This document shows positions 14,063 to 48,692 of a DNA stretch of 64,000 bases, piece after piece. The notes under the pieces were generated by a model. The model was given only the letters and a program-made list of their open reading frames with translations, was not told the origin of the DNA and did no database searches. The translations under genes and the position numbers were made by a program. The stretch's first letter is position 1. Each line of letters opens with the position of its first letter. The stretch covers positions 91,123 to 155,122 of the IMG/VR virus record IMGVR_UViG_3300029858_000001; one strand, given 5' to 3'. The DNA is from a virus.

Positions 14063-14064
14063 TT

Positions 14065-15038: not shown

Positions 15039-15058
15039 TTTTTAACCTCTTTTCTTTA

Positions 15059-16778: not shown

Positions 16779-16780
16779 TA

Positions 16781-17188: not shown

Positions 17189-17201
17189 TTAAAATTCCTC
17201 C

Positions 17202-23500: not shown

Positions 23501-24069
23501 TCTGGCTCTTTGCCAAAATGTGTTACACATTCTTTAATAATAGTAAATATAGGTACTTGTTCTATAGAAATATCTCCATTATCATCTTCATACTATGTTT
23601 CATGAAAAGTAACTGCTGAAGGTAATGTACCTCCGCAAGTTCCATCAAGCATACACATTTTATCTTTGCCTGAAATAGAAATATTTGCTGAAGAAGCAGT
23701 AGTAGACGTGGTGGCTTGATTAATTACATAAGTACCAAGAGGGAACCAAATAATATCTCCATAATTTTTATAATCTTCAAATGGATTTTCAAGCCCCACT
23801 TCTATCTTTACTTTTTTATTTATTGAAATTATATTTTCAATGTTATTTATATCATTTTCATTTTCTATTCCACTTACTGTTAAACTTATTGTGCGACGTA
23901 ACGCTGCTTGTCCATTAACAGTAATAGATCCAGCCGTAGCTATTCCCTAAATTTCACGCAAAGGTTTTTCATCTACAAATGATAATACAGTAATTTTGGC
24001 GTAATGGTTTTTTATACGCATCTCATCTAACATAGATAAGAATTTTGAATCAGTCAAATATTCTCTCAT
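20566..24069 (-). CDS. Giant baseplate/tail protein (~1170 aa) with an internal duplicated module, TAG-rich
   Basis: ATG 24069 with GGAG RBS. Contains two copies of P-I-G-Y-P-D-[RK]-P-N-x-P-D-L-D-P-G-F-G-[IV]-P-D-S-W-H. Start and stop frames agree. Confidence 0.45.
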
Positions 24070-27000: not shown

Positions 27001-27494
27001 TCTTTATTATTTAAGATATTTACTATAGGTTCTTCTATTGCTTTAGTAATTATAACATTAGACCATTCTGAAAATCCATTTATTAATGTTTGTGTTTTTT
27101 TCCATTTAAAAAACGCAATTTTATTTTTTTCATAATCTAACTTACTATATCCAAATCGGATTTGAATTTTATAAAAAGTATTAGAAACCCAACCAATGGT
27201 ATCTCCTAATTTTATATCAGAATTTTTTACAGTAACTGTATATATTCCATTAGTAGAGGTAGTAGGCTTTTCCATATAAATAATTCCATCATAATAAATA
27301 TCTGTATTTACAACACTTTTATTATTTGACTATTGGCTAAATTTTATTGAAATATTTTTTACATCATCATAGTTCAACGATTTAGGCAAAGAAAAATTTA
27401 TATTTAAAGATTCCGCAGTAGCTAAATACGCAGGTATTGAACTATTTACAATTGGCGGATATACTTTATTTACATTTATTGTAGATGTTGCCAT
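24075..27494 (-). CDS. Giant tail protein (~1140 aa), Tal-like by position; TAG-rich
   Basis: ATG 27494. Track fragments 26841..27275, 25254..25736, 24678..24914, 24393..24626 and 24075..24380 are all in one frame. TAA stop at 24075. Confidence 0.5.
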
Positions 27495-27597: not shown

Positions 27598-27657
27598 CCA
27601 TCATTCTTCAATATACCAATCACGTATTTTAATAGTTTTCTTAGGCGGAGGAACTAT

Positions 27658-30600
27658 ATTATTAGTTAATTCCTATCTAAAATCTATATTGGAGGTTAAT
27701 TCATTTAACAATCTTGCTATAGTTAAAATATTACTTGGAGTTTTTTCATTTAAAGTTAAATTACCATCAATATCAATTGTTAATTTATCTCCTCCTAATT
27801 TAACTAATCCATCTGCTCGTAAGATATTAGTAGGGATGTCATCATTATCATATTGATATAATCCAGACACATAACCGCTAGTATCTGTTTCATTTGTTAA
27901 AGATCGTACTTTTCGTATTGAAGGTTCTGTAGGCTCTACAGGATTAGTGATAGGAATTTTACGGCGTTTTTCCCAAGTATCTCCTATATAAGTTTTTCCA
28001 CCCAAATATTTTTTCTATTCATTTTCCTAAGATCTGGCTATCTAATCATATTTGCCGCCCTAATGAGAAAAACTAGGTTTCATAGGTTTAGTAAATTCTG
28101 GGTTTTCTTCGTCTATCACTGTAATATCAGTACCATCATCTTCTTCTTCTACATTGCTAACATTTCCATCTCGTTCTATTAGCATTACTATTGGATAAAC
28201 TAAATATCTTTTAGTACTGCTTTCCCATCTATTACCAGGGATAGCAATATAGATAGCACCCATTGGGGAGGTATTTACAGTGTCAGTTTCTTCAGCGAAA
28301 TAAGCTCCTCCAAAAGTAGAAGTAGGAACTAATTTATATTCTCCTGTTTTTTTCTTATTTTCTTCTAAAGGGTATAAAAATAGATTAGAAGTCATAGAAT
28401 AAGTCTAAGAATTAATAAGCTAAGTATCTCGTTTATTATAATAATATATAAATGAAATAGCTTTTAATGAATGATAACTCGCTGTACCAGAGCTATCATA
28501 AGTAATTCGATCAGGAATATTTATTTCTTTTATATTATTAATATCAATATTCTCACTAACCATTATAGGCTACCAATAATTTAATACTTTAGTTCCTTCA
28601 GTTTTTCCTTTAATACCAACAGTAAGACTAAACTTAATAAAATACTATCCTTGCTTGTCTTCAGTAAAATTATTTACTTTATATATAGTATCAGTTAATT
28701 TTTCACTGGAAACATGAATATCAGTACGTTTTAAATTTAAATTATAACTACCTAATACATTTCCTTCTTCATCTTTGTATTTAGTGTCAGAAGTAATAAT
28801 TTCCCCATCAAGCCGCAATTCAGCTTTAAAATAAATAGGACTATAATTATCTCCAATTTTATTTAATGGTCGTTTAGAAACTTCATTCCCATTTTCATCA
28901 CACTATTTAATTATAAATGTATAATCTCTACCATTTAAATCATATTCACCCTATTTACTAAAATAAATAGTTTTATTAAAATAATACTCTTTATCAGTTA
29001 ACGTAATAACTTTTAAAATTAATGTATTATTAGTATAATTAGCAATACGTTTTTGTCGAATATTAAAATGTACTGAATTATCTTTGGGATTAACCCATAA
29101 CCTAGAAATCATTGAATTAGTTATTTTAGTAGTAGCATATTCAAATAACTAACCTCCATCAGGTGAATACCAAGTAACCGTTTTAATACCTACATTATCT
29201 TTATTAACTGTAATAGTAGGAGTAATAATCATTTCTGATTCTGACTAATCTATAGTAATACTATTGTTTTTATCATACTAAAAAGTATCATTACCATTAA
29301 ATATTACTCGTACTGGAATATCAGACTGGTAATTAGTTAACTTATATTCACAAGGTACATATTTGCCGTCTTCTAACAAACTAACTGTATAAAACATTAC
29401 AGTACCATAATCTAAATATTTAGATACATCAATAGAGCTGACATTTTTATCTAAAGCAACGTATGAACCATCCATAAGATCAACATACCAATCTGCCATT
29501 TCAGTTTTTTCACGTCCATCAACTATTTCTAATTTAACTTCTGTATCACTTACATCATTACGAATTATTGTAAAACGTTCATTATAATATTTCACAACTC
29601 TTACATCTTTACTTAATGTAACTGAAGAGTTATAAATTACTACTAATTTATACCTCATCTATTGATAAACATCTTTTCCAGAAACAGTTAGTTCATTAAA
29701 ATTAACTTTTGTTTTATCATTAATTAATTCCCACCCTGGGCCGGCAATTTTATCATATTTTTCATCACCAGATAAAACAGCAGGATTTTGTTTATACCAA
29801 TAACAAACACAATTTTTTTTATCTAATATATCTTTATTAGCATAATAAAATACCCCTTTTAAAACAATAGAGTCTGTATCATATATTAATGATAAACCTT
29901 GAGGCGCACTTATACCTACATAATACAAATCTTTTGTTGTATCTTGTAAATCTACAAAACAAAGTTTTATATTTTTACAAAAAATATTTGGATCTTCGTT
30001 ATAAGTTTGAATTAATTCATTTTTACTATTATATACTTTATCATAATCAATAAACCGTTCTTGGAAAAATGTAATTTTCCTTACACCAAGTAAATTAATT
30101 CCTTGAAAATTATAAATAGCATACTAGGGTGAAAATACTTCATAATTATAAATACTACCTGAAAAATTAGTAATATCTAAACGGCGAGTAAAAATAACTC
30201 CAGTATCTTTTTCTTCAAATTCTATTTTTAAACCATAGTTACCAGCAACCATAGTACCATAAAACTAAGTCCTAAAATTTGCGGAAATCATAATATTTGG
30301 ATAGGTACTAATCAAGCTGGTAAAAATAGAATTATCCTCTAATTTTTCATTACTATAAATTACTTTTTCATAATAAGTATTGCCTTCTGGTGCATATGCT
30401 AAAATACCATATTCATTACCATCACTATGAATTTCATTTACTTCAATAACCTATTGAGATAAATCTTCATATTCTTCTTCTGTATAAGAAGAGGCTGAGA
30501 CTTTTCCTTCTATTGTTTTTTTCTATGTAAAATCTCCGCCTGGAATTTTTACATAAACATTAGTTCCTTTAGAATAAGTATAATTAATTCCAATAGGCGC

Positions 30601-30813
30601 ATAAGCTCTAAATTTACCTTTTTGGTATTCAACAAAATACTCACCAGTATCTGCATTATTAAGGCTTACAATTTCAGCAATTATAGTTTTATCAAAAGAC
30701 AACTCGGCATCACGTGCTCGCGCAATATAATCAATAGTCTCTAATAATTCATTAGTAATCTATTTAGGCTATTTTACAACAGCTAAATATTCTTCTTTTC
30801 TATTATAAGCCAT
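27658..30813 (-). CDS. Large distal-tail (Dit)-like / baseplate hub protein (~1050 aa), TAG-rich
   Basis: ATG 30813 with GAGAAAGGAG RBS, directly downstream of the TMP. Fragments 29659..29928, 29278..29658, 28060..28395 and 27673..28005 are in one frame. TAA at 27658. Confidence 0.45.
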
Positions 30814-30828: not shown

Positions 30829-30861
30829 TCCTCAAAATGAGGAGGAAATTAATCCTCCTCA
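30829..30861 (-). promoter_or_regulatory. Two overlapping alternative hairpins spanning the TMP stop codon and the Dit-like RBS
   Basis: Alternative stems are ctcctca/tgaggag and tgaggagg/cctcctca. The downstream RBS gaggag could also pair with the shared arm. Confidence 0.35.
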
Positions 30862-33800
30862 TTTAGATTTATTAGCACTTATGTATTGAGCAGCATTATT
30901 ACTAAGATTAGACAATGCTTCTTCAATTTCATAATGATCAGTCACTCCTGGGAAATCAGCTTGGATAGTAACTTCTTGCTTAATCGGTTGAGTTTCATAA
31001 ATAGGGGGAGTAGTTTTATCAATTAAACTACCTAATTTAGCCTATCCAAAGTCAACCATTGACTAAACTTGCTTATCAATCCAATCATTCATATTACGAA
31101 CAATATCAACAGCACGAAGTATATTAGAAGTATCTTTTTGGTTAAGAATTAATTCTTTAGGATGAACTTTAATAATTTTACCATTATCAGGGCCAAATCC
31201 TTGTCCCTTACCCCAATTACCTGTATATGCTCCAGAAGCCGCGCCACTACCATATTTTTTATAAATTTCATCTGCTATAGTAGGGTTCTGTCTATTATTT
31301 ACAGTATTAGCCTAATCTTCATCGCTAAATTTTTCTCCAGATCCTTCGTATTCAGCTTTAACTCCGTCTGCCATAGCATCTAATTTTTCTTGACGTTTAG
31401 CAAAAATTGCATCAATATCTGCTTTGGTATATTCATTGTCATATGCATCTTTTGCACTACCATTCGCAGCAATTTCAGCTAATACTCTATTCCAGTCAGT
31501 ACGCATATCAATAGAAGAACCGCTAAGGCCTCCACCGCCGCCGAAATTACCATCAATATACTATTCATTCTTAGCCAACTCTTCATCAGTTCGTTTAGAA
31601 TATTTCTATTCCCAATCAAGAACCATTCCAATAGACTAAGAAATATATTGCATCAATACATCAACAAGCTTTTCAATTTCATCACATAATTTTTGAATAT
31701 GTTCTTCAAGACTATCAAGAGTGCCACCCATATCAGTACCAAAGTTATCCCAAGAAGTACCAGCTACTCCCATTGCTGTTTCAACAACTTTTTGCCAATC
31801 CTTATAATTAGTTTGTAATTCACTAATTGTAGTATTAGAATTATTAACAAATTGCATATAAGCATCATTATAATCATACAAATCAGTCATTTGGCCATAA
31901 AGAGTATCATGGAATGTTAATCCACTATTTGTTACACCTTTATTTAATTCATCGAGTAAATATCTTTGTCTTTCAACATAGTATTCTTGTAATGATAATA
32001 ACTAATTTGAATAATCAGCAGAATTCTTATCGAGATCTTGCAATGCTTCTTTAAAATCAATTTGATTCTAAATTAACTATTCACTTACATCATTAATATA
32101 ATCTTTACTAAGTGATCCTAATTCATGAACAGCATCTTCATATTTCTATGTAGCATCTTCAATTTTTTCTTCATCTGCATCATAAGCATAAGTCCAGTTA
32201 CCGGCGGCATCACGTACTAAACGCATTGAAGTTTTTGAATTCTGCTGCTCCATAAGAGCGATCTCAGCAAGCTGTAGATCATATTTTTTCTATAAGTACT
32301 CAAGGTCATATTGGCTCATCTGGACGCCATCGGCCTGAAGATCGTGAATCTCTTGCTAAATGTCTCTAAGTTTTTGTTTAGCTAAAAGATCATTAGCATC
32401 AGCTAGCTATAAATTTAGCTAACGATTTAATTTATTCAACTCATATAAACGGTCAGCATCATCAAGGTATTGCTCATTAATAGTTTTTGCCTTTTCATAT
32501 TTATCTTGGAAATCTTCAAGAGTTTCAAATGGTGATAAAGCATTACTTAATATATTAACTGCCATTTCAACACGCATTTCAAATAAATCCTGAGCTGCTT
32601 CAAGAGTTTCTTCCCAAGAAGCTAAAAATTCATCAGAAGCTTTTTCAGTTTCTTGCTTTAATACTTCAACTTGATTTTCCCAGAATTTTACAGAAGATGT
32701 ATCTCCATCAGCCTAACGATCAGCGAGCGCCGCCTATGCTTCTTTAGTAGCTTTAGTTAAACCATCCATTTGACCTTTTAAAGATTTCATTTTACCTAAC
32801 ATTGTTTCTACTTTAGTAGCACCAATCTAAGTTTTTAATCCCATATCAAGCATTGAACGGCCAGACAAATCAATAATATTATTAAGATGGTCAAGCATTG
32901 ATGTATAAGTATCAAGACGCTCTATCTACTTATCAATTTCATCAAGTGCCAAATCTAAAACATTCTAGACCAAATCTTCAATATCATTACGTAAATCTAG
33001 AATAGCCTCATTAACATCAATCAAATCACTTTGATATTCAAGTATCTATTCATCAAACATTTGCTCATAACCTGGGTGTCTAGCTTTTGCGGCATTTAAC
33101 TCATCAATACCCTAACGTAATGTAGCACCTTTATCAAAAAGCTATAACATTTCTTGCTCTTGGTAAGCAAATCCTTCAAGCATCGCTTCAATAGTCTGTT
33201 TATTACCATGAGCCTATTTAAGAAGTTTTTCTTGATAATAGTTAAGACGTTTAATCTAGAAATCAATCTACTTGACTTTCCAGTCAATCTATTTTGTAAT
33301 AGCTTCAAGTTCAAGTTCAGCAGCTTCTTTTTCTTTCTGAGCGATAAGAGCGACATTTTCATCAATACGCTCTTGAATACCCATAGGACCATCAAGGCCA
33401 TCTTTGATTTTAGTAAACCATTCATTCAGATCTTCTTCGCTCATACCATCTTCAAGATTTTTTTGATATTGTGCCCAAACTTTACCCCATAATTCAGAAG
33501 CATTAGCAATTTCACCATCATCAGTAAGTTTTATTTCAAATTCTGGATGATCTTTATTAAATTCTTCTACTTTAAGTTTTAATAACTTTTTCCAAGATTT
33601 AATCTAATCTTCAAGAATATCTTGTTCTTCTTCTAATAATTTTATTTCTTCTTGAATATATTTAGCAGAGTCTTCTGGATTAGCTCCCTCACGTAAAGCT
33701 TCAAGACGGTCACGTTTCTTTTCTTTAGTTTTCAATAATTCATCTTGAATTTCTTTACCAATATCATTGGCAGATTTGGATTCAGAACCGCCGCCTCCGC

Positions 33801-36800
33801 CTCCACCTTTATCTTCTCCACTAACTGTAGTAGTATAATCTCCAGTTACATTTGGAACTTTTGAATTTTTTGCAGCTACGCTAACAATTTGGCCTATAGT
33901 TCTTTTAGCTCCTCTAATTTGATCTAAAGCTGCCGGGCTAGTTGGATTCTACATTGCAATAGCTATTGCTTCAAAAGCACTAAATAGCTATTGAAGCTAA
34001 GAAGTATCAAAATGAATTCCCGTTCTGCCCATAGCATTAAGCCATCCACACATATCATTAATATTTGTACTAAGAGGTAATAAATTCATAATTGCCTAAG
34101 TAGTATCTAAATTAACATTACCATTAATATTAAAATTACCATATTTATTAATGATTTCATCCATTTTAGAAGCAAATTGCTAAGTTTGAGTATTTATCTC
34201 ATCTTCATTAAAATTAAAAAGAGAAGACGTAGAATATTTTTCTTTCATCTATTCTATATAAGAAAAAATACCACCAAATTTATTTCTTATATTATCTAAA
34301 GCTTCACCTGCAGCTTGCTATTCTGTTTCATTACCATATAAAAATTTCTAAATTAATCCTTCATTATCAGCTTTCCGGTATTCTTCTTCAGTTAAATTAA
34401 ATAAATCTTTTATTTCATTTTTAATTTTTTTATTTTCTTCAGTTGTATCTTTTCCCTATTCTTCTAAATCTGCTACATTTTTTTTATATTCTTTTATATT
34501 TTCAATACCCTATTTTATTTCGGCTCCACGTAAATCTTTAAAAAATTTATTATAAATTTCTGATGCAGATTTACCTGTTTCTTCCATATGATCTAAATTA
34601 TAATTTAAATCATCAAGAGCTGTTGACACTCCTTCGATATCTTGATTATGAGTAGCCCAAGCTCGTAATCCCTTTTGACTGGCTTCATCATCTCTATAAT
34701 CAAAACCAGTCATTTCACTCATTTCTTTTACTGAATTAGCATCAGTATAAGCATTAGTTCTTAATAAATCAGATGTATATGCTCCATCAATATTAGCCAT
34801 ATATGCATCTATTATTCCTTGAATAATTTCTGCTTGGTCAGAAGAACTTAATTTTTTATAATAATCTAAATCATAATTATTTGTTTCATCAGTACCAACT
34901 AATTTTGCAATTTCTTCAGCATTACCGAAGATATCTAAAGCCTATTGTAATAGATAACCACCAGAATCATCTGTTAATCCTTTTTGCATTGCTTCTATCT
35001 AAGTATATTCTTTACCATTAAAAACATACCCGCCTTGTTTTATTCCTGTATCCCAAGCTTCTTGATGAGCTTCTGCAATGCTATGCTGTTCTTCAGCTCT
35101 ATCTATTCCAGCCTAAGTTAAAGCATTTTTGTCTTTAGTATCAAAATCCTTAACTTTTATATATTCATCTGGACCAGTCTAAACATAATAATCTTCAGGA
35201 TTTAATCCAGCCGCTTTAAATCCTTTAGTAATTTCATCATACTTTTCTTTGGTAATAGAACTACCAACATCTTGACCCATTAAATCAAAAATTTCAATTA
35301 ACAAATCTCTAAAAGTAGTAAAATCTTCTATAGGCAATTTATTAGCAGTTTCTTGCATCATATCATAGAAGCCTTTCCAAGCTCCTTCATCGTCTGATAC
35401 GACAATACCTAAATCTTCTAGAGTGTCAATAAATTCTTCCCAAGTTCCAGAAGACCAATCAAAATCAGCTATTTTATTTAACTAATCAAAAGTTAAATCT
35501 TTTCCTACCGTATTAATCGCTTCAGTAAACGCGGCAACTCCATTTTTGCCTGCCACTTTGAATATGTCTTCTGCAATCTAAGAAATACGAGATTTTAATG
35601 AAACACTATATCCTTCAAATTCGTCAATAGCTTTTGATATATCATCTTCATCTTTAAGCCCTAATATATACTTAAATGCTTTATTATTATTTATGTTTTC
35701 AATATTAGCGATCTAATGTGATGCTTCTTCTACTATAGCTTTACCCAATTCTTTACTACTAGTTACGCCTAACTCTTTCATCATATTAGACATATATGAT
35801 TTTACGGTTTCCTGCTATTCAGGCTCTAATATATTAAAATCTTTACCGAATAAACTCTATCCAATTAAATTCTATAAATCTTCATCTGTTAAATTCTATT
35901 CTAAAGCGTCTTTTAAATCCTTAAGCTAAGTTTCAGTAAAATTACTTAAATCACCATTATTACCAAAAAATTCTAAAATACCTTGACCAGTAATTCCTTG
36001 GTTATTCATACCAGTCTAAAATTTTTGAGCCATAGCATAAGTAGTTTGAAGTTCTTCTCCCATAGCTTCCATAACTGCTATAGACTAAGCGACTTCAGAA
36101 AAATTAATTGTAGAACCATCTTCTAATCTAAAACGTTTATTAGCTCCATCGCCTTCAACAGAATTCTTCTAATCTAATTTATAAGCTCTATCATTTTTAT
36201 CAACATTAATAGATTGTAAATAAGTATTCCACAAATCTTTTAATGCATTATCTCCGCCTTTAGAACCTCCAGCATTTCTTCGATAAGCTCCAATATCATA
36301 ATCTTCTCCATTATAATTCCAATTAAAATTTTCTCCGTTATAAAAACTATCTTTTATAGCCTTTATATTAGCGTCTACAGCCATTGTAGTCGTTTTAGCA
36401 TCTTCAGTAGACATAGTATCTAATCCAAGAGCCTATTGGATAGAAGCTTCTTTTGTTACCTATAAAGTTGCATCTGTATTTGCCTATATTACTTTTGAGA
36501 CATTAGATATAGCAGCTTGAACATCATCAGTATTAAATTTATCTGCAATTTTCTAGGCATAATCATTTAAAGTCGTACTATCATTGAGAGTTTCAAATCC
36601 ATTATTCTTTAATGCCTATTCGATAATACTAATTTGTTCTTCCTAACTTTTATTCTATAAATTTTCCTAATTATTTAAAATTAAATCTGCTATACCTGAT
36701 ATTACTGAAGTATATTGTCCATTTTTTGTTAATCCTCCAGTTTGGGTGCCACTCTAAATATTAAGAACATCCTAAAGATTACTTGTTAAGTCCTATTTAG

Positions 36801-39800
36801 CTTTTTCAATATTTAAGTTTTCTAAATTGCTTTGTTCATTAGCTAAAGCATATTGCTATTGAAGAATCTATTTATCATAGACAGACTATAATTTATCAAC
36901 AGCACTTTCATCTATCCAAATTTCGCCAGTGTCTTTTTTACCCCAAGCACCTTCCATATTCTTTAGCTCAGGATAAGTATTTAAAATATTAAGAGCTTCT
37001 TCATTAGCTTTAGTTAACTATGCACGCCATTCTTTAGTACCAACAGTACATTCATCTAAAGCAGATTTAACAGAGTTATAACTATCAAATACTGATTTTA
37101 ACTATTCAGCTTTATTCTTTGTTTCTTCTAACTAACTTTTAAAACTCTCAACAGCCTATTCAGAACGTTTAATTTGTTCTTCTATAGTAAAAGACTAAGC
37201 TGTATTATATACTTTAACCAATACAGCAATGGCAGCAACTACTGCTCCAATTATTAAAGCATATTTACCCAAAACAAGTAAAGATTTAGTAAACATTGCA
37301 TGAGTTGCCGCACCGCTAGCTGCTAATTGCTATTCAGCAGTTCCCGCAGAACCAGCAGCTACTCCCAATTCTTTAAGTTTGGCAGTATAAGCATCAAGAC
37401 CAGTTTGCATAATTTTAGTTCTAAACCCAGAACTATTCTCTATCTTTGTCTTTAAAGCTGCCTATAAATCAGACCCCTATAAAGACCCTCCTAAACCAGT
37501 CATTATTGATAAAATATTAGTACCTAGTCCCTTCCAATTAGTTCCAATTTCTTTTAATCCGCTAGCTAACTAATTTACTCCATTGATTAAAGAAGGAATA
37601 GCAAAACTCGCTGAAGTAATACTCTAAGTTAATTTTTCTCCAAAATCTAATTCACTGTTATTTAAAGCATTAAACATTCCTTTTAAACTATTGATTCCAA
37701 TAGCTAATTGAGAAATACCCTAAAAACTAGAAACTAATCCTTGAGAAAAACTGTATATAGATCCTTGACTAGCTTTTAATTCTGCGTTAAAAGCTTCAAT
37801 AGCACTCTCATATTTTTCAATAGCTCCTTTGTTCTACAAAAGAGCCTCTTTCTCATTTACGTAATCTGTAAGACACTATCTTAAGGCATTAGACTAAGCT
37901 TTTGTTAATTTTTCTGCTTTAATTTTCTAATTAACATAATTATCAATTTCAAGATTGACGTCTCTTAAATTATTAACTTCAGCTAATATATCTTTTCTAA
38001 GAGTACCTTTAGCACCATTACTTAGATTAGAATTGTTACCCTATTGAATTAACTAATTTAATTTACTATATCTTGGGTTATTCAAATTTAATTGACCAAA
38101 TTGAGAAATAAAATCTTTAAAAGAACCATTTGAATTAATTTTTAAAGACTTTAAATCTTGCATTGTTTTATCATTATAAAAATTATCGACAATCTTTTGG
38201 CCTTTTTTTAAGCTATTGTCAAAATAAATTACGCCTTTATCTCCACCAAATTTTTTATTATTATCTTCAAAAATTATATTGCGAGCATTACGTAAATTGT
38301 TATTACTCTAAGTTTGTTGAGCTTCTATGCTTTTTTTAGATTCTATAGCTATTTGTCCATAAGCCTAAGAAATTTTTAATAATGTCTATAATCTTAATTT
38401 ATCTGTTTCATTTAACTAATTATTTGCTAGCTATAAATCATAAGAAGCCTCTGCAGCTTTGACCATTGTAGTTGTTTCTAATTCAACTGAACCCTATTTT
38501 GTTAAATCAGGTTTTTCTTCATAAGTTGTAAAGGTTTTTAAAACATTTATCATCTACTGCTTCATAACCGCAGCCTAATTTTCAGCAGCTCCACTATCAA
38601 TGAATAAATTGGAAGCCATACGCTGCATATTATTTACAATATCAGGACCGAAACTCTTTAACATTAAAGTAGAAATGACACTTAATACGCCAGGTAATCC
38701 ACCTAATGAATCAATCAATTTGCTTGTAATATTTAATGTATCACTTAATGTATCATTTAATCCGATAAAAAATTTATCACTAACTAATTGCTTATAAATT
38801 TCTTCAAGAGAAGCTTGTACTCGCTTTTTAGAAGCTTCCCAACTTTCAGCATAAATATCAGCTTGTTCTTGTAAAGTACCTTCAGAATTTTTAGCCACTC
38901 CAACTAGCTCTTTAAAATAATCTTTATTCTCCATAAGATTAACTAATTGAGTGTATTGACGAACACCACCAACAGTCTATGCAAGAGCCACTTGTTCAGC
39001 ACGACTTAAACTATCCCACTTATTCATCATTTCATCAAGGATAGTATTCATATCTTTTAACTCACCCTATTGGTCTTTAATACTAATACCAACTTTTTCA
39101 AGGGCTTTAGAATATTTATTTAAATCAGTACCATCTTCAAGAGTTTCTCCGAGAGTCAAACCCTAAATACGAGCGAATAAAGTTTTAAGGCTATTACCTA
39201 CTGTGTTCGCACTTTCACGTGTTTTAGCAGTTAATGTAGCTAATGCAGATGTAGCATATTCATAACTAAGACCAATAGTATTAGCAACAGAAGCGAATTT
39301 CTATATACCTTCTGAGATTTCATCAGTACTAGAAGCAGTATATGCACCAAGCTTGGTCATTACATCGGCATAATATTCCAGAGATTTGCTGCCATCATAG
39401 AAGTTATTCCAAACAGCAGTTAACTAATCGGATATTTTAGAAGCACTTTCACCTGCGGCATTCGCCATTTTAATAGTAACTTCAGTACGGTCAACAACTT
39501 CTTTATCACTTAAACCCTATTGATAATAAATTAAAGAAGCATTAGTATAATTAGTAGTAGTTGTACTTAATGCTTGAGCAGCCTTATTTGCCTTTTCAGC
39601 AAACTCAGCCATTTGATCACTACTCTATCCAGTAACTATACGAATATCATTTAATGATCTATCTAAATCTTTTGCATAATAGTAAGCCTTCTATAAAGAA
39701 CCCTATACTCCATGCATTAAATTAGATGAAATTTGCCATTTGGCTGTATTAGCTAATGTCTTTTTAAAATTATCTAATAAAGCATTAGTTCTTTTTAAAG

Positions 39801-40182
39801 GAACTTCAGCATTAATAACAGACTATGCTAACGCAACAAATGCTTTATCACCTGTTGGACCCAGATTCTCTAAATGCGTAGCAAAATCCTAAAGAGTATA
39901 GCCACTCTAGCTCAAACTCTTTGAAAATTTTGATAAATCTAAACGTCCAGTATTAACATTAGTCGCCTAATCTAAAGCAATTTTTAACTCCTAAACTGCT
40001 GCCGAGGCTTCATCTATTTCTTTTTTAGTGGCATTAACATCAAAAAATTTAATATTTTTTGTTGCTATCTAATTCATTAAAGTATCTAATGAACTTTGTA
40101 AATCTCGTAATTGCTATTTAGCCTGACCTGTATCAGCTGTAAATCGCATATTAACATTATAATTAGCACTGTTATTAGCCAT
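30859..40182 (-). CDS. Tail tape measure protein, apparently a single ~3100-aa ORF once TAG is read as sense
   Basis: ATG 40182 with AAAGGAG RBS. Every track fragment over 9.3 kb (38575..38934, 36169..36414, 35179..35361, 34510..34800, 31636..31890, 31312..31506) is in the same frame as the start and the TGA stop. Ala/Gln/Leu-rich coiled-coil; LSRAEQVALAQTVGGVRQ region. Spot translation found no TAA/TGA, but this was not checked exhaustively. Confidence 0.5.
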
Positions 40183-40224
40183 AAAATAGCTCCTTTCTCT
40201 CATTATAATTTTCTATATATAAAG

Positions 40225-40257
40225 AAAAGGCGAGAGGAACAAAGCCTCTCGCCTTTT
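40225..40257. terminator. Hairpin plus T-run between the chaperone-like gene and the TMP (attenuator or terminator)
   Basis: aaaggcgagagg aacaaag cctctcgcctttt. Confidence 0.5.
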
Positions 40258-40294
40258 AATATTCCTATTTAAATTAGAAATTAATTATAATATT

Positions 40295-40822
40295 TTAACC
40301 CATCTTGGTTAAAATATCTTTTACTAAAGATAGACTCTCAGGATTAGAAATCTTATCTTGTAGCTCATTAACATCTAAATTTAAATTAGAATAATTCTGA
40401 TTCATAGCATCCATAATTCCATAAACACTATTATGATATTTATAATATCCATTAAGCGTTTCATAAGTATAGACTTCTAAATCATCAGTTTGATTACAAT
40501 TTACTTGTTTCTTTAACTTTTTCATAAATCCTGAACCAACAAGTAAATCATAAAGTTTATACAAATCTTCTTTCTGCTTATCTGTAAAAGATAAATTTGT
40601 ATAATTAAATACTATTGCTAAATCCATATATACATGGAAAGCAAATTCATTCAAAAATTCATTGTTAAAATCAATAACTTGTTGAATGACCGACTAAGCA
40701 ATATCCATTCTCTCTTTTATTGGAAGATACTATTTTACTTCAATAACCTGATCATTATATTGCCAACTTTTTATTTCCGAATTTTTCTGAAAGGAGAGTT
40801 TTGTAAAAGCTATTTTTGCCAC
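40295..40822 (-). CDS. Tail assembly chaperone-like protein (by position upstream of the TMP), TAG-containing
   Basis: GTG 40822 after AAAGGAAGTGAG. N-terminus MAKIAFTKL.... The frame runs through the track ORF 40295..40654. Confidence 0.4.
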
Positions 40823-40901
40823 TTTCTCACTTCCTTTACCTTTATATTTTAAAAATTTTGTCAGAAACAAATTTTTTAATTCTTATTTTTTTTACAAATA
40901 T

Positions 40902-40930
40902 ATTATAACAAAAAAATTTTTCAAAGTCAA
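40902..40930 (-). promoter_or_regulatory. Consensus sigma-70-type promoter on the minus strand (TTGACT, 17 nt, TATAAT), preceded by three A5T5 tracts
   Basis: Minus strand reads ttgact ttgaaaaatttttttgt tataat. The aaaaattttt element is repeated 3x on the upstream side. Confidence 0.55.
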
Positions 40931-40938
40931 AAAAATTT

Positions 40939-42258
40939 TTACTAATCCTCAAAAATTTTTTCAAAATTCATACTAATAGGACTATATAAAGCTTGTTCCA
41001 TAGACATTCTTCTTTTATCATTTTCTAAGATACTTTTAGATCCCTATTTTTTATTAAAGTATAAATTCATTTCTATATCTTTTGCCAATTTAGCTGTTGA
41101 TAAAACTTTTAAGAATCCTTCTTTTTTAGGATTATTAATGACTAAAAATTTAGTACGACCAATATCATTAATAAAATTTGCCATTACATTCTAATAAGCA
41201 TACTTAGTATCTCCAACTCTTTGTTTAGCCCCTGTTAATTCATAAATAGCTCTAATTCTAAAAAACATTTTAGGTACATCATTATGCTCGGCCATTTTAG
41301 AATGCCTTGCCATACAATTTAACATACGAGCATATCTATATAACTTATAACTTGTATCTCCATCAGCTACAGTTAAAAAAACACGATAAGGATTAGTATG
41401 ACCTAAACCTATAAAACTATTTGATAAATAGTTTTTATCACTAAAAGTAGCTAATGATAAAGCATTAACTACTCGTTCTAACATTGTTGCGGTCGCTGTT
41501 ATTGAAATATTATAATTTAATCCTGTATTATCAGCTTTTATCTACTTACTCTAAATAGCGCCGACTTTACCATTTTCTTTAATTTGAGTATAAATAGTAA
41601 CAGCTTTTAAATTATTTTTTTGACGTTCTGTTGTAGTATTACCTGAATCTTTTTTTTCCTACCCAATTTTATAAGCTAGCCTAGAGAAATAATTTATTGC
41701 AGTTTTTGTTGCACTATCTATAACTTCATCACCAGCATTAATAATTAAATTTTTCATATTAATACTATCAACTAATTGTCCAGAACGATGTGTTTGAGGT
41801 AAAGGACCATAAGGCATTTCCATATTCTAAAAAGCATAGTCAATAGTAGTAATAAATTCATTCATAAAATTTTCTAATAAAGCACCACGTTCAGAACTAT
41901 TAGCTCCTTTTTTCACCAATCCTCCATTAGTAAATAAATTAGGATTTACCATATATAACTAATTAAATAATTCGGCCAAAGCCTAATCCTAAACTATTTT
42001 TACTAAAGACTCGGTAGTGAAAGACATTTTTTTACTATAATTATTTTGTATCTATTTAATTCCATTTAAAACTTCTTCTAATAATTTAGCATCCTGAACT
42101 TCTTTATTAGTAATCATATCATTTGGTCGAGCTGCTGCTCTATATGTTTCCAAAAGACTATTTAAATAAGTAGGAGTATTTACTTCATTTTTATATGAAA
42201 CTCCCTTTTGTTTATAATAAACTAACTAATTTTTCTAGGCATTTGTTAATTTTGCCAT
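40939..42258 (-). CDS. Hypothetical structural protein (~440 aa), TAG-rich
   Basis: ATG 42258 after the RBS and terminator. Track ORF 41191..41484 is in frame. TAG TAA at the end. Confidence 0.45.
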
Positions 42259-42287: not shown

Positions 42288-42320
42288 AAAAAAAGGAGAG
42301 GGATTAACCCTCTCCTTTAA
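42288..42320 (-). terminator. Rho-independent terminator downstream of the major tail protein
   Basis: The minus strand reads aaaggagagggttaatccctctcc followed by T9. Confidence 0.65.
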
Positions 42321-42470: not shown

Positions 42471-43556
42471 TTAAATATCAAAATAGCTGTCATGCATTGG
42501 ATCATGGATAGTTTGAGTACGATAGACACTATCATTGTCAATATCTTCAATGATCTGAACTGCAGCAAGCACTTTCTTAGTAGGATTGAAACGAGTAGTT
42601 CCTGGGAAAGCATCAAGCGTGAAGGTAAAAGTCGCAGGATCACCAGTTGCGGCCATACTGAAAGTAAAGTTAGACTGGATCTTGCAGTTAGGAATTACGA
42701 ATTCTGCTGGAAGATCAACGCCGTCTTGAGTACGGAATAGAGTAGAAGCTTCAAGATAGAAGTTGCCACCAAAAGATTCAGCAGTAATTTCAATTTGACG
42801 AGCTTTGCTAGCTTTCTCAATATAATAATCAAGAAGAACGACAGAGCCTTCAAAAAGTGCTAATTTATGTTCTGCATCAGCTTCAGTTTCATCAACGATA
42901 GTATAAGTAGAAGTAATATCCTGAATTTGAAGCCCATAATAAATCTGAATACCAGCTTTAGCTTTAGTATCAGCTTCTTCATCAGTACAAGTCTTATACT
43001 TCATTTCAGTTTCATCAAAATAGAACTTTTGAGGTTTTGTCGGTGCATCTGCCTAACGAATAACTGTAGGAAGATAAGGTTCAGTTACTGGCTCATCATT
43101 GTCAACTCGCATAGCATAAATATAGAATTCACCCTTATGCGCACCAGTAGTAGTATCAATTTGTTCGTATGGTAAATTTTTAACAAAAATTTGAACACTC
43201 TTTTTATTTTCAGCAAGAGCGACAGCAGTTGTTTTTTCAGTTACATGCTGTTTAATTGTATTCTGTTTAGAAGCATCAATAAGACCTGCTCCAGCAAGAA
43301 TCATGAAACCTTCAGCAGAAATAAGAGCGTCTTCCATAGTGAATGTTAAAGTACGGTCGCCATCCCAAGCTACTAAACGAGCATTGCCGCGTCCGCCTTG
43401 TGCATATACGGTCGTAGAAGCACCTTCAAGGCTAGAAGTTTTTAATGTATCGAAATAAAGAACTGGTTCGTTCGCATAGAAAACTTTATTACCAACCTTC
43501 ATAGGAGCACGAGCTTTTAATACGACATCGCATATCTCACGAACACCAAATTTCAT
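42471..43556 (-). CDS. Major tail (tube) protein with a C-terminal Ig-like domain; one TAG
   Basis: N-terminus MKFGVREICDVVLKA... is typical of phi13-family major tail proteins. Strong RBS AAGGAGG. Track ORFs 43053..43556 and 42471..43004 are in one frame, joined through TAG 43053. Confidence 0.6.
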
Positions 43557-47555: not shown

Positions 47556-48692
47556 TTACGGCTTATCTTCATTTCCGCCATCAATAGTATCATGAGAACC
47601 AGTAATCTGACCAGCATAGTCACGAACCTTACCAGTTACGCCATCAAGATGCCATGTCTTCATATCACCAAGAAGTTCAGTATCACAATAGCAGCAGATG
47701 TTATTAGCTAACATAGCAATAACGCCAACTTTCTTATAAACCTGAATTTCACGGCTACGATCATAATTGGTGTATTCATCAACAATGGTATTGCCTTCCA
47801 TAGCAACCTTTACAGGCTTACTATCAGCACCAGTAGGAATAATCCAAGCATAACCTGGGTCAATGACTTTCTTTTCATTAGTAGCATCTTCAAAGCCCTG
47901 CTCAAGAATAACAACTTTATAGCCCTTATAGGAAGCAAGACGACCAGTATTCCAAAGCTCATTTTTCATAGCTTCAGTATAACGCCAAGCATCCTTCGGA
48001 ATCATACGAACAGCAAATTCATAAGTGCAATAAATAGTAGGAGTACCATAAGCAGAAGCAATCATAAGTAACTTATCAAAGCCGGGTTCATCAAAACCAT
48101 TAGCAACTAAACGGTTAGCAGGAGGTAACTGGTTAACAGAAGCCTTTAAAGCACCGGCAATTTCTTTATAGATAAGTTCGTCCATACCTTCCATGACGAT
48201 CTGGGTAACAACACCAAAATCAACACGGCCATCAAGGAATTCCTCAAAGCCAATTTGAGCAGCTCCGCCGATAGCGCTTGTACGGACTTCAAAGCATTCT
48301 TCAGTCTTACCAAGCTTGAATACTTCATAGATACCAGCTAGGCCGACACGAGTGATGAATTGCTTTGCACGAGTATTGTTGCTGAACTTTCTACGGAAAA
48401 TAGGCTTGTCACCCTGTTTAAACGTCTTAACTTCAGCAAACTGATTGTATTGCTCTTCAACTTTCTTAGGAAGAACTTCATCAATAGTTTCCTCAATCAT
48501 TGAGAAAATAAGGTTCTTATTATCACGATATAAAGAATAAGTTCCAGCAAGTTCATTTAATTCTCTACGGAGAGTTTCATTAAGAGCATCATAAGAAAGG
48601 CTTTCGCCATTAAAGCTGTAAGCAGTAGGAGTAGAAGGATCAGCCTTAGCGACAGTCTTCATTAATTGAACAAGATTTTTTCTATCTAACAT
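47556..48692 (-). CDS. Major capsid protein (HK97-like by size and position), TAG-free 378 codons
   Basis: Intact ORF preceded by a strong RBS GAAAGGAGAG. Positioned after the scaffold-like genes, followed by a strong terminator. GC is higher than the surroundings. Confidence 0.65.
   Translation of the reverse strand: MLDRKNLVQLMKTVAKADPSTPTAYSFNGESLSYDALNETLRRELNELAGTYSLYRDNKNLIFSMIEETIDEVLPKKVEEQYNQFAEVKTFKQGDKPIFRRKFSNNTRAKQFITRVGLAGIYEVFKLGKTEECFEVRTSAIGGAAQIGFEEFLDGRVDFGVVTQIVMEGMDELIYKEIAGALKASVNQLPPANRLVANGFDEPGFDKLLMIASAYGTPTIYCTYEFAVRMIPKDAWRYTEAMKNELWNTGRLASYKGYKVVILEQGFEDATNEKKVIDPGYAWIIPTGADSKPVKVAMEGNTIVDEYTNYDRSREIQVYKKVGVIAMLANNICCYCDTELLGDMKTWHLDGVTGKVRDYAGQITGSHDTIDGGNEDKP

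What the first reader, a model, noticed from the sequence alone, without database searches (positions are those of the whole stretch)
30859..40182. Tape measure protein of about 3100 aa implies an exceptionally long tail
All minus-strand ORF fragments over 9.3 kb sit in one frame that links an RBS-led ATG at 40182 to a TGA at 30859. The sequence is Ala/Gln/Leu/Ser-rich coiled-coil, typical of tape measure proteins, and sits between a chaperone-like gene and a Dit-like gene. At roughly 0.15 nm per residue this predicts a tail of several hundred nanometres. The track lists none of this as one ORF because of TAG.
Basis: partly seen in the sequence, partly recalled or inferred. Interest (0 to 1): 0.6.

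Follow-up and report, generated by a model that had tools for sequence, protein, structure and literature searches.

The report
Amber-recoded giant phage tape measure gene
This 9.3-kb stretch is one real gene for a 3,107-residue phage tail "ruler" protein in which the TAG stop codon is read as glutamine 107 times; it predicts a long (about 440-490 nm) flexible tail, but rulers and tails of this size are already known in related cultured and metagenomic phages, so it is a sound but ordinary find.

Summary
On the minus strand, ATG 40182 to TGA 30859 is one frame of 3,107 sense codons with 107 TAG and no TAA or TGA (chance about 1e-93). About 30 independent IMG/VR relatives keep the same frame open. 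TAG stands for Gln.

The product is a TP901-family tail tape measure protein (TMP). TIGR01760 scores 126.8 bits (cutoff 28.8) and PF10145 scores 97.8 bits (cutoff 33.2). Both ends match the ends of single annotated TMPs in cultured phages.

The module is that of large Bacillota siphoviruses. The tube-protein gene upstream matches those of Enterococcus VRE9/EF1, Bacillus Tsamsa and Lactococcus 949, and no sheath was detected. Four cultured relatives give 0.140-0.158 nm per residue, which predicts a tail of about 435-490 nm.

"Exceptionally long" is not supported:
- Tsamsa has a 3,123-aa TMP and a 440-nm tail.
- Phage 949 has a 3,276-aa TMP and a 500-nm tail.
- The TAG-recoded phAss-1 group has published TMPs of 3,149-3,209 aa.
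- One relative found here has a 4,517-aa TMP.
- Thermus P23-45 holds the record at 5,002 aa.

The "Dit-like" label for the downstream gene failed a profile test.

Side observations: a hypervariable but length-conserved centre, a conserved hairpin before the TMP start, and near-total TAG avoidance in the capsid and tube genes.

Verdict: new member of a known kind.

The parts
30859..40182 (-). Tape measure protein gene: 3,107 codons plus a TGA stop, with 107 in-frame TAG read as Gln
   Evidence: frame and stop counts; chance estimate, TAG-Gln substitution; PF10145, PHROG TMP families, TIGR01760; frame conserved in about 30 relatives; both ends match single TMPs of VRE9_3, 949 and Tsamsa
38689..39702 (-). 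Conserved N-terminal TMP core (aa 161-498), the TP901-family core domain
   Evidence: TIGR01760 at 126.8 bits (cutoff 28.8). PF10145 over aa 199-406 at 97.8 bits (cutoff 33.2); 55-76% identity to distant relatives; dN/dS 0.03-0.04.
33853..38682 (-). Hypervariable central region (aa 501-2110), the inferred length spacer
   Evidence: 14-19% identity even to relatives that are 78-83% identical in the C-terminal third, yet the centre is 1,517-1,616 aa long in those relatives; dN/dS 0.36-0.55; no Pfam or PDB hit; aa 1748-1890 modelled as all helix, at low confidence.
37198..37293 (-). Hydrophobic, transmembrane-like segment (aa 964-995), preceded by a Gly/Ser/Ala-rich amphipathic stretch (aa ~800-960)
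   Evidence: Kyte-Doolittle 19-aa mean up to 2.35; 3.5-residue periodicity is 17x background in aa 801-900; an equivalent segment at aa ~880-1100 occurs in nearly all relatives, in Tsamsa and in 949.
33787..33807 (-). Poly-Gly tract (G7, aa 2126-2132) at the boundary between the variable centre and the conserved C-terminal module
   Evidence: a G4-G8 tract about 960-1,050 aa before the C-terminus occurs in most relatives, and also in 949 (936 aa before the end) and Tsamsa (804 aa before the end).
30862..33852 (-). Conserved C-terminal third (aa 2111-3107). Its last ~120 aa (window 30880-31236) are shared with the TMPs of VRE9_3, 949, Tsamsa and L010.
   Evidence: 74-92% identity to mid-distance relatives; matches positions 2498-2673 of 2675 in phrog_34405; C-terminal BLAST matches; dN/dS 0.15-0.19
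40190..40201 (-). Shine-Dalgarno region GAGAGAAAGGAG, 8 nt before the ATG
   Evidence: the same motif sits before the TMP start in relatives.
40225..40268 (-). Terminator-like hairpin (13 bp stem plus T-run, 40225-40257), with the conserved motif ATAGGAATA (40260-40268) on its 5' side
   Evidence: hairpin; a hairpin at the same place in most relatives, with different stem sequences; the motif is not enriched window-wide. SPbeta has an annotated stem-loop just upstream of yomI.
40295..40822 (-). Small gene in the tail-assembly-chaperone position. It is 137 aa from ATG 40708, but more likely 175 aa from GTG 40822, reading through a TAG.
   Evidence: frame; the phAss-1 homolog is 186 aa, E 2e-10; phrog_30570, E 9e-4; match to the VRE9_3 phrog_30570 protein, E 6e-5; the other two frames are full of stops, so no frameshift extension.
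40902..40930 (-). Promoter-like site TTGACT-17-TATAAT with a TG extension, upstream of the chaperone-position gene
   Evidence: best site in the 14-kb scan, 11 of 12 matches. This is a consensus match only.
42471..43556 (-). Major tail (tube) protein gene, followed by a terminator-like hairpin at 42292-42318
   Evidence: phrog_2729, E 5e-55; 39% identity over 93% of the VRE9/EF1 homolog; homologs annotated as major tail or tail tube protein in Tsamsa-like Bacillus siphoviruses and the 949 group; terminator.
27601..30813 (-). First tail-tip gene downstream of the TMP (1,070 aa, 21 TAG), with a conserved N-terminal domain of unknown fold. It is not demonstrably a Dit.
   Evidence: family alignment A1; no PDB or Pfam hit; hhalign probability 0.1% against the YomH/ORF129/gp225 Dit set; structure model pLDDT 41, unusable

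Best explanation
Window 30859-40182 (minus strand) encodes a single 3,107-residue tail tape measure protein of an uncultured, low-GC, TAG-to-Gln recoded siphovirus. The phage belongs to the broad group of large Bacillota siphoviruses that includes SPbeta, Tsamsa, 949, Enterococcus VRE9/EF1 and phAss-1.

Shown here:
- One open frame, conserved across relatives.
- TAG behaves as a Gln codon.
- An N-terminal TP901-type core and a C-terminal module homologous to known TMPs.
- A transmembrane-like segment.
- A tube-protein gene upstream and tail-tip genes downstream.

Inferred from established TMP biology (Katsura's lambda ruler work; TP901-1 and other siphoviruses):
- A few copies of the extended, largely helical protein sit on the tail-tip complex through their C-terminal module.
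- The tube protein polymerises around them and stops where the ruler ends, so tail length scales with protein length.
- At infection the TMP is expelled, and its hydrophobic segment helps form the channel through the envelope.

Four cultured relatives give 0.140-0.158 nm per residue, so the predicted tail is about 435-490 nm, non-contractile. The hypervariable but length-conserved centre behaves as the spacer. The N-core and C-module are the conserved interaction ends.

Translation needs 107 amber suppressions. These presumably come from a phage-encoded tRNA-Sup(CTA) located outside this window, as in phAss-1. That would tie TMP synthesis to the late, code-switched phase of infection.
For: - Frame and statistics.
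- Family membership: PF10145 at 97.8 bits against 33.2. TIGR01760 at 126.8 bits against 28.8. PHROG TMP families to 1e-43, with phrog_34405 matched at both its N- and C-ends.
- Conservation: about 30 IMG/VR loci keep one frame of 2,757-3,306 codons, and one has 4,517, with 0-115 TAG and no internal TAA/TGA.
- TAG = Gln: at reliably aligned columns, the non-TAG residues opposite window TAGs are Gln in 53 of 90 cases, against a 3.8% background. The reciprocal count is 54 of 89. The ENA pipeline translated 21 of 21 TAG as Q in a relative. phAss-1 carries three tRNA-Sup-CTA predicted to insert Gln (PMC10607447).
- Ends: aa ~1-541 and ~2983-3101 align to the two ends of the 2,673-aa VRE9_3 TMP, and likewise to 949 and Tsamsa.
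- Siphovirus context: tube-protein homology to EM-verified siphoviruses. No sheath family was found in the six tail-side proteins scanned. Synteny with VRE9_3 holds PHROG for PHROG.
- Calibration: SPbeta 2,285 aa and 320 nm (PMC8270828). Tsamsa 3,123 aa and 440 nm (PMC3903500). Phage 949 3,276 aa and 500 nm (PMC3888941). PMBT24 1,508 aa and 238 nm (PMC11035940).
- Ruler-like evolution: dN/dS is 0.04 in the N-core, 0.36-0.55 in the centre and 0.15-0.19 in the C-third. Centre length is kept at 1,517-1,616 aa at 17-19% identity.
Against: - No virion, micrograph or proteome exists for this phage, so the tail length is an extrapolation.
- No suppressor tRNA lies in the 64-kb window or in the +/-10 kb TMP loci of 19 relatives. 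The decoding agent is therefore unseen.
- Helicity of the centre rests on composition (0.9% Pro) and one low-confidence model (pLDDT 50).
- Giant TMPs can carry non-ruler cargo, as with the P23-45 RNA polymerase, and may be processed. Tsamsa's TMP runs as 280 and 100 kDa bands. Not every residue need count toward length.
- No canonical G/GT frameshift chaperone pair is present, and no Dit was recognised.
- EF1 and EF5, close to the nearest cultured relative, are listed as Myoviridae in one table (PMC6435515). No micrograph is given there.
Confidence: 0.85

Rival explanations
1. It is a TMP, but a sizeable part of it is not ruler. That part could be cargo or an accessory domain, or a segment removed by processing. 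The real tail would then be clearly shorter than 435-490 nm.
For: - The P23-45 TMP carries an N-terminal RNA polymerase of about 1,100 aa (PMC10770324).
- Tsamsa's TMP appears as 280 and 100 kDa bands.
- A conserved poly-Gly tract lies about 980 aa from the C-terminus.
- The N-core and C-module are conserved like interaction or functional domains.
Against: - Relatives with the same architecture and size have tails that fit the full length at 0.14-0.15 nm per residue: Tsamsa, 949 and SPbeta (and the cited papers).
- Nothing beyond PF10145 was found in Pfam, NCBIfam or PDB.
- There is no DxDxD motif.
- The centre is hypervariable with relaxed constraint, which is unlike an enzyme.
- A centre fragment models as all helix.
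Confidence: 0.12
2. The phage is a myovirus, and this is the TMP of a long contractile tail.
For: - EF1 and EF5 share the module and are tabulated as Myoviridae.
- The 439-aa protein at 40939-42258 next to the tube gene has no annotation.
Against: - The tube protein is homologous to the major tail proteins of EM-verified siphoviruses: Tsamsa, the 949 group and vB_..S phages.
- No sheath Pfam or PHROG family was found in any gene between the capsid gene and the TMP.
- The 439-aa gene occurs only in the closest clade. It lies downstream of the tube gene, not upstream where sheath genes sit.
- The EF1/EF5 label comes with no micrograph, and that paper notes they form a separate group.
Confidence: 0.06
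3. TAG is a sense codon here, but it encodes an amino acid other than glutamine.
For: The suppressor tRNA was not observed. About 40% of substitutions at TAG columns are to residues other than Gln.
Against: Gln is by far the dominant partner in both directions: 59-61% against a 3.8% background. The next residues (A, S, E) are at or below background. The related phAss-1 has Gln-type Sup-CTA tRNAs.
Confidence: 0.04
4. The standard code applies, and the region is a string of short genes or a decayed pseudogene rather than one protein.
For: Standard-code ORF callers fragment it. One relative (L041) has a true in-frame TAA at codon 675.
Against: - Zero TAA/TGA in 3,107 codons, against 129-494 in the other frames.
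- The frame is conserved in about 30 contigs.
- There is purifying selection: dN/dS is 0.04 in the core.
- TAG and CAA/CAG interchange at aligned positions.
- The standard-code relative L015 encodes the ortholog as one ORF of about 2,950 aa.
Confidence: 0.01

Closest known systems
Tape measure proteins of phAss-1 and the proposed Phassvirus genus (Babkin et al. 2023, PMC10607447; OQ749652)
   Same: These are TAG-to-Gln recoded gut phages. Their TMPs are 3,149-3,209 aa; my reconstruction of phAss-1 gave 3,150 aa with 110 TAG. The late genes are homologous: TerL 42%, portal 38%, MCP 49%, chaperone-position gene 30%.
   Different: TMP identity is only about 31%, and it is confined to the N-core. 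There is no nucleotide-level match. The gene order of the modules differs. The window is therefore not a Phassvirus but a separate, larger clade; related contigs are 100-200 kb.
Bacillus phage vB_BanS-Tsamsa gp226 (3,123 aa; tail 440 nm; PMC3903500)
   Same: The length is almost identical. The N-core and the extreme C-terminus are homologous. The tube protein is homologous. It also has a transmembrane-like segment near aa 1,000 and a poly-Gly tract in the last third.
   Different: Tsamsa uses the standard genetic code. The TP901 core starts about 570 aa in, because Tsamsa has an extra N-terminal region. A ~255-aa Dit gene follows its TMP.
Lactococcus phage 949 ORF130 (3,276 aa; tail 500 nm; PMC3888941)
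   Same: The size class is the same. The core, the C-terminus and the tube protein are homologous. It is an EM-verified siphovirus.
   Different: It uses the standard code. It has an extra ~570-aa N-terminal region. A canonical Dit (ORF129) and a 1,908-aa host-specificity protein follow the TMP.
Enterococcus phage VRE9_3 / EF1 TMP (2,673 aa; phrog_34405; PP680569)
   Same: It is the closest cultured relative by synteny. The same PHROG families occur in the same order from portal to TMP. TMP N-terminus aligns 1-545 and C-terminus 2556-2670. Tube protein identity is 39%.
   Different: It uses the standard code. Its TMP is about 430 aa shorter. No published morphology was found in the library.
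Bacillus phage SPbeta YomI (2,285 aa; tail 320 nm; PMC8270828)
   Same: It has the TP901 core (25% identity) and an annotated stem-loop just upstream of the TMP gene. Pfam families named after SPbeta proteins (YonB, YomV, YomW, YonD) hit the neighbours of a close relative's TMP.
   Different: YomI is annotated as carrying a lytic transglycosylase. No lytic domain was detected in the window's TMP. It is shorter and uses the standard code.
Thermus phage P23-45 gp96 / P74-26 (5,002 aa; tail nearly 1 um; PMC10770324, PMC10034513)
   Same: It is a giant TMP that sets a very long siphovirus tail.
   Different: It is much longer and carries a virion RNA polymerase in its first ~1,200 aa. No homology or DxDxD motif was found here. 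It shows that 3,107 aa is not a record.

Membership tests
TP901-family phage tail tape measure protein (TIGR01760 / PF10145) | Match to the curated core-domain models above their cutoffs | tested here: met
   TIGR01760 at 126.8 bits (cutoff 28.8), aa 161-498, model positions 6-328 of 349. PF10145 at 97.8 bits (cutoff 33.2), full-length model match.
Tape measure protein (functional class) | Gene lies in the tail module, downstream of the tube-protein gene and a small chaperone-position gene and upstream of the tail-tip genes | tested here: met
   Tube homolog at 42471-43556. Small gene at 40295-40822. Downstream genes include a phrog_1887 tail protein. Synteny with VRE9_3.
Tape measure protein (functional class) | Extended, mostly alpha-helical, Pro-poor protein with hydrophobic or Gly-rich membrane-active segment(s) | tested here: inconclusive
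   Pro is 0.9%. There is a transmembrane-like segment at aa 964-995 and an amphipathic Gly-rich stretch at aa 800-960. Helicity is supported only by one low-confidence model (pLDDT 50, all helix).
Tape measure protein (functional class) | Tail length proportional to protein length | not testable with these tools
   This needs EM of virions and length mutants. Calibration from four cultured relatives gives 0.140-0.158 nm per aa.
Canonical siphovirus tail-assembly module (lambda G/GT type) | Two overlapping chaperone ORFs joined by a programmed -1 frameshift just upstream of the TMP | tested here: not met
   the two alternative frames across 40183-40940 are full of TAA/TGA stops. Only one ORF is present.
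Genetic code 15 (TAG = Gln) phage | Many in-frame TAG in conserved genes, with TAA/TGA as the only terminators | tested here: met
   all 41 gene models listed end in TAA or TGA. TAG supplies 40-70% of Gln codons in most late genes.
Genetic code 15 (TAG = Gln) phage | TAG positions correspond to Gln in homologs | tested here: met
   53 of 90 and 54 of 89, against a 3.8% background.
Genetic code 15 (TAG = Gln) phage | Phage-encoded suppressor tRNA with a CTA anticodon | tested here: not met
   no tRNA in the window or in 19 related TMP loci. The rest of the genome is not available, so absence from the phage is not shown.
Proposed genus Phassvirus (PMC10607447) | High nucleotide identity (members share 80-86%) and the same genome synteny | tested here: not met
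   no megablast match; 24-53% amino-acid identity and a different module order.
Distal tail protein (Dit), as claimed for 27601-30813 | Dit-type domains (Sipho_tail / DUF6558 / SPP1_Dit) or profile similarity to Dit-position proteins of relatives | tested here: not met
   YomH, 949 ORF129 and Tsamsa gp225 hit these families; the window gene's family does not (hhalign probability 0.1%); no other tail-tip gene does either. The fold-level test failed because the model had pLDDT 41.
Myovirus (contractile tail) | Tail sheath gene next to the tube gene | tested here: not met
   no sheath family in any gene between the capsid gene and the TMP. The gene at 40939-42258 remains unannotated.

The most novel reading that the evidence does not exclude
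In this lineage TAG may act as a dose and timing throttle as well as a late-gene marker.

Observed: the two highest-copy virion proteins, MCP and tube, are almost TAG-free (3 of 251 and 7 of 214 Gln codons across 20 relatives). Low-copy parts use TAG for about half of their Gln codons, and the TMP has 107 of them.

Proposed: if each amber is read through with probability p, TMP yield scales as p^107, which is about 0.4% at p = 0.95 and 34% at p = 0.99. Completion of the ruler, and hence tail initiation, would then respond very steeply to suppressor-tRNA level. Together with the conserved terminator-like hairpin just upstream, this would set the very low TMP-to-tube stoichiometry. It would also gate tail assembly to the end of infection.
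Probability: 0.25. Interest if true: 0.55.

Novelty: new member of a known kind. Interest (0 to 1): 0.25.

Why it matters
The practical point concerns annotation. This is a textbook case of a gene that standard-code annotation shatters into about 100 pieces. Reading it with code 15 restores the longest gene of the phage and a morphology prediction: a siphovirus with a tail of roughly 0.45 um.

It also extends the published phAss-1 picture. There is a larger, more diverse clade of amber-recoded SPbeta/Tsamsa-like gut phages, and its orthologous TMPs span 0 to 115 TAG codons and 2,757 to 4,517 residues. That makes it a natural series for two questions: how stop-codon reassignment spreads through a genome, and how ruler length evolves while sequence does not.

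The finding does not reveal a new kind of tail or ruler.

Tried and rejected
- **Nucleotide search of the TMP against 50,697 phage records:** no match.
- **Sequence search of the whole TMP and of the tube protein against PDB:** nothing. A profile of the downstream gene against PDB and Pfam also gave nothing.
- **Cargo enzyme in the TMP, like the P23-45 RNA polymerase:** no DxDxD motif, no Pfam or NCBIfam domain beyond the core, and a hypervariable centre. Rejected.
- **Internal tandem repeats, as in many TMPs:** self-BLAST found none.
- **Structure prediction with a family alignment:** The two single-sequence jobs on TAG-free fragments gave pLDDT 50 and 41, too low for fold searches, so none were run.
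- **ATAGGAATA as a general late-promoter motif:** not enriched in the window. Rejected.
- **Truncated database hits blamed on TAG:** I first read the uniformly short (356-689 aa) hits as truncation at TAG. One search showed that at least one source pipeline already reads TAG as Gln, and most of those contigs are short. I dropped that inference.
- **Rfam:** no family in the window.
- **Morphology of the VRE9/EF1 phages:** not found in the paper library.
Full report
**1. The observation.**
The reverse complement of window 30859-40182 is 9,324 nt. It begins with ATG, ends with TGA, and contains 3,107 sense codons. Of these, 107 are TAG and none is TAA or TGA. The other five frames of the same DNA hold 129-494 TAA+TGA each. 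Base composition (30.6% GC) predicts about 208 in 3,107 codons, so the chance of none is about 1e-93.

The start is preceded by GAGAGAAAGGAG and an 8-nt spacer. An in-frame ATG at 40203 lies 5' of that Shine-Dalgarno sequence and is unlikely to be used. When TAG is read as sense, the whole window resolves into a tiled gene map. A minus-strand late module runs from 14065 to 57156, and plus-strand genes flank it on both sides. All 41 gene models I listed end in TAA or TGA.

**2. One gene, conserved.**
A scan of IMG/VR with the N-terminal 527 aa returned 35 loci on contigs of 23-402 kb, at 45-96% identity. In every locus long enough to judge, the same frame stays free of TAA/TGA for 2,757-3,306 codons and carries between 0 and 115 TAG. 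One locus (L010) ran off its end. Joined to a second fetch, it gives a 4,517-codon frame with 64 TAG. Its first 545 aa and last ~110 aa both match the window protein.

L015 has no TAG inside the gene. It is a standard-code relative that encodes the ortholog as one ORF of about 2,950 aa.

Against cultured phages, the window protein's N-terminus (aa ~1-541) and C-terminus (aa ~2983-3101) align with the two ends of the single annotated 2,673-aa TMP of Enterococcus phage VRE9_3. They align likewise with Lactococcus 949 ORF130 and Tsamsa gp226. The alternative of several genes or a pseudogene is excluded as far as sequence analysis can exclude it.

**3. What TAG encodes.**
I took alignment columns whose flanks align reliably to relatives at 43-86% identity. 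In those columns the window's TAG codons face TAG in 235 of 325 cases. Of the remaining 90, 53 face Gln, against a 3.8% background. Where relatives have TAG and the window does not, the window has Gln in 54 of 89 cases.

In a related ENA contig, the depositor's protein has Q at all 21 TAGs. The related phAss-1 carries three tRNA-Sup-CTA predicted to insert Gln (PMC10607447).

In the TMP, TAG supplies 107 of 215 Gln codons, against CAA 94 and CAG 14. No tRNA gene lies in the window or in the TMP loci of 19 relatives. The suppressor itself was therefore not seen, and its existence is inferred.

**4. What the protein is.**
- Pfam PF10145 (PhageMin_Tail) matches aa 199-406 at 97.8 bits, against a cutoff of 33.2.
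- NCBIfam TIGR01760 (tape_meas_TP901) matches aa 161-498 at 126.8 bits, against a cutoff of 28.8.
- Fourteen PHROG families match, thirteen of them annotated as tail length tape measure protein, down to E = 1e-43. phrog_34405, the family of the VRE9/EF1 TMPs, is matched at both its N-end (positions 7-548) and its C-end (positions 2498-2673 of 2675).

No other domain was found in Pfam, NCBIfam or PDB sequences. In particular there is no lytic transglycosylase or peptidase of the kind reported for some TMPs, and no DxDxD polymerase motif.

**5. Architecture.**
- **aa ~100-500:** a strongly conserved core. It is 55-76% identical to relatives whose overall identity is about 26%. dN/dS against close relatives is 0.03-0.04.
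- **aa 501-2110:** a hypervariable centre.
  - It is 14-19% identical even to relatives that are 78-83% identical in the last third, and dN/dS is 0.36-0.55.
  - dS is raised too, which suggests mosaic exchange.
  - It still keeps a similar length (1,517-1,616 aa) in those relatives.
  - It always contains one or more transmembrane-like segments near aa 880-1100. In the window this is aa 964-995, preceded by a Gly/Ser/Ala-rich amphipathic stretch.
- **Poly-Gly tract:** G7 at aa 2126-2132, marking the start of the C-terminal module. A comparable tract lies about 960-1,050 aa from the C-terminus in most relatives. It also occurs in 949 and, 804 aa from the end, in Tsamsa.
- **aa 2111-3107:** a conserved C-terminal third (dN/dS 0.15-0.19). 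Its last ~120 aa are shared with all the cultured comparators.

There are no internal repeats by self-BLAST. Pro is 0.9%. A TAG-free fragment of the centre (aa 1748-1890) folds, at low confidence (pLDDT 50), as helices only.

Conserved ends and a sequence-free but length-constrained middle are what a molecular ruler should look like. That reading is inference.

**6. Surroundings and tail type.**
Upstream, 42471-43556 encodes a 361-aa protein of phrog_2729 (E 5e-55). It is 39% identical over 93% of its length to the VRE9/EF1 homolog. It is also homologous to proteins annotated as major tail or tail tube protein in Tsamsa-like Bacillus siphoviruses and in the Lactococcus 949 group. A terminator-like hairpin follows it.

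From the portal gene to the TMP, the window and VRE9_3 share the same PHROG families in the same order: 35301, 4088, 30998, 3853, 31155, 6123, 4051, 2729, 30570, 34405. The neighbours of a close relative's TMP carry Pfam families named after SPbeta proteins: YonD, YonB, YomW and YomV. No sheath family was detected. Tsamsa, 949, phiL47, PMBT24 and SPbeta are EM-verified siphoviruses. I conclude that the tail is long and non-contractile, with about 0.85 confidence.

The small gene before the TMP is the positional and weak sequence equivalent of the phrog_30570 gene of VRE9_3 and of a 186-aa phAss-1 gene. It probably starts at GTG 40822, giving 175 aa and reading through a TAG. It has no frameshift partner. 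"Chaperone-like" is therefore a positional inference.

The gene after the TMP (27601-30813, 1,070 aa) has a conserved N-terminal domain. It shows no similarity to Dit proteins. YomH, 949 ORF129 and Tsamsa gp225 hit DUF6558, SPP1_Dit and Sipho_tail. The window family hits nothing, and hhalign against those three gives probability 0.1%. No other tail-tip gene scored either. A fold-level test failed for lack of a usable model.

**7. How long a tail?**
Cultured relatives give the following calibration:

| Phage | TMP (aa) | Tail (nm) | nm per aa | Source |
|---|---|---|---|---|
| SPbeta | 2,285 | 320 | 0.140 |, PMC8270828 |
| Tsamsa | 3,123 | 440 | 0.141 |, PMC3903500 |
| 949 | 3,276 | 500 | 0.153 |, PMC3888941 |
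| PMBT24 | 1,508 | 238 | 0.158 | PMC11035940 |

This is long, but it is the norm for this lineage. The family spans 2,757-4,517 aa. TAG-recoded phages with TMPs of 3,149-3,209 aa have been published; my reconstruction of phAss-1 gave 3,150 aa with 110 TAG. The record is P23-45/P74-26, with 5,002 aa and a tail of nearly 1 um. "Exceptionally long" is therefore not supported.

**8. Relation to the known.**
The window is not a Phassvirus. It has no nucleotide match, 24-53% protein identity, and a different module order. It belongs to a larger, more diverse amber-recoded clade within the same broad group of large Bacillota siphoviruses. At the time of the dump, the NCBI node "Caudoviricetes code 15 clade" held only phAss-1 and Lak phages. 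I rate the finding as a new member of a known kind.

**9. Side observations.**
- Across 20 relatives, the MCP and tube genes almost never use TAG (3 of 251 and 7 of 214 Gln codons). Adjacent low-copy structural genes use it for 44-61%. The main recoding survey I could read describes recoding of structural and lysis genes. A term search found no occurrence of "capsid" in its main text.
- A GC-rich hairpin plus T-run sits between the chaperone-position gene and the TMP start in most relatives, with unrelated stem sequences. It is preceded by a conserved (A)TAGGAATA motif that is not enriched elsewhere in the window. SPbeta has an annotated stem-loop at the same place.
- Together these suggest that TMP dosage is held down at both the transcriptional and translational levels. 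I give that reading as the novel case, at probability 0.25.

Noticed in passing
window 47556-48692 (MCP) and 42471-43556 (tube), compared with the other late genes 14065-57156; also loci L003-L036: The two highest-copy virion genes almost never use TAG. In the window, MCP has 0 of 11 Gln codons as TAG and tube has 1 of 15. Across 20 relatives the counts are 3 of 251 and 7 of 214. Neighbouring low-copy structural genes and the TMP use TAG for 44-62% of Gln codons. The large plus-strand gene 1841-5788 (1,315 aa) has 0 of 56.
   Followed up: yes
window 40225-40268 (minus strand); the same position in L003-L007, L011, L014, L018, L020, L030, L034, L036: A terminator-like hairpin plus T-run lies between the chaperone-position gene and the TMP ribosome-binding site. 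Its position and structure are conserved, but the stem sequences are unrelated. A conserved (A)TAGGAATA motif sits just 5' of it and is not enriched elsewhere in the window. SPbeta has an annotated stem-loop at the same place. The function is unknown; attenuation of TMP transcription is plausible.
   Followed up: partly
L010 + L043 (IMGVR_UViG_3300031853_000052): A relative's TMP is a single 4,517-codon frame with 64 TAG. Both of its ends are homologous to the window's TMP. It predicts a tail of about 630-710 nm, which would be among the longest known outside the Thermus P23-45 group.
   Followed up: yes
L015 (IMGVR_UViG_3300032038_000397), L034, and the other related loci: Orthologous TMPs form a gradient of recoding. 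L015 has 0 TAG and uses the standard code. L034 has 11, the first at codon 675. Others have 36-78, and the window's own subclade has 95-115. This looks like a natural series for studying how amber reassignment spreads.
   Followed up: partly
window 33853-38682 (TMP aa 501-2110): The centre of the TMP is hypervariable and probably mosaic. It is 39% identical to L005, whose flanks are 97% and 89% identical. dS is also raised there (1.1 against 0.24-0.34). Length is nevertheless preserved.
   Followed up: partly
window 33787-33807 (TMP aa 2126-2132); Tsamsa gp226 aa 2319; 949 ORF130 aa 2340: A poly-Gly tract about 800-1,050 aa from the C-terminus recurs across the family and in cultured relatives. 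Tsamsa's TMP was reported as 280 and 100 kDa bands (PMC3903500). That would fit cleavage near such a linker, but this is speculative.
   Followed up: partly
L041 (ENA ERZ28575150 scaffold_337), locus 10001-19237: In this relative the 3,078-codon TMP frame is interrupted by a single in-frame TAA at codon 675 and then continues in the same frame. It is called as 674 aa plus 2,256 aa. This could be an assembly error, a defective variant or readthrough. The deposited protein has Q at all 21 TAG, so the source pipeline applied code 15.
   Followed up: partly
window 40295-40822 and 40902-40930 (minus strand): The chaperone-position gene most likely starts at GTG 40822 (175 aa, reading through a TAG) rather than at ATG 40708. 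It has no frameshift partner. A near-consensus extended -10 promoter-like site (TTGACT-17-TGnTATAAT) lies just upstream, in the middle of the late operon.
   Followed up: partly
window 40939-42258 (minus strand): A 439-aa gene with 13 TAG sits between the tube gene and the chaperone-position gene. It has no PHROG or Pfam hit. Homologs occur only in the window's closest subclade (L003-L006, L028, L036). Its function is unknown.
   Followed up: partly
window 27601-30813, 24075-27494, 20566-24069 (minus strand): Three tail-tip genes of about 1,100 aa each follow the TMP, in place of the ~255-aa Dit seen in SPbeta, 949 and Tsamsa. The first has a conserved N-terminal domain of about 100 aa, with a helix followed by beta-strands in a low-confidence model. 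The third has a hub-like N-terminus (phrog_1887; weak DUF5047 hit). No Dit was recognisable.
   Followed up: partly
window 57450-64000 (plus strand): This higher-GC stretch (34-42%) holds small, TAG-free plus-strand ORFs typical of an early region. It includes an AbrB/SpoVT-like regulator (58098-58403) and a tandem pair of paralogs (61202-61531 and 61555-61872). It is transcribed divergently from the late module.
   Followed up: no
window 1-64000: There is no tRNA gene and no Rfam family anywhere in the 64 kb, despite heavy TAG use. The amber suppressor must be encoded elsewhere in the genome or supplied by the host.
   Followed up: partly
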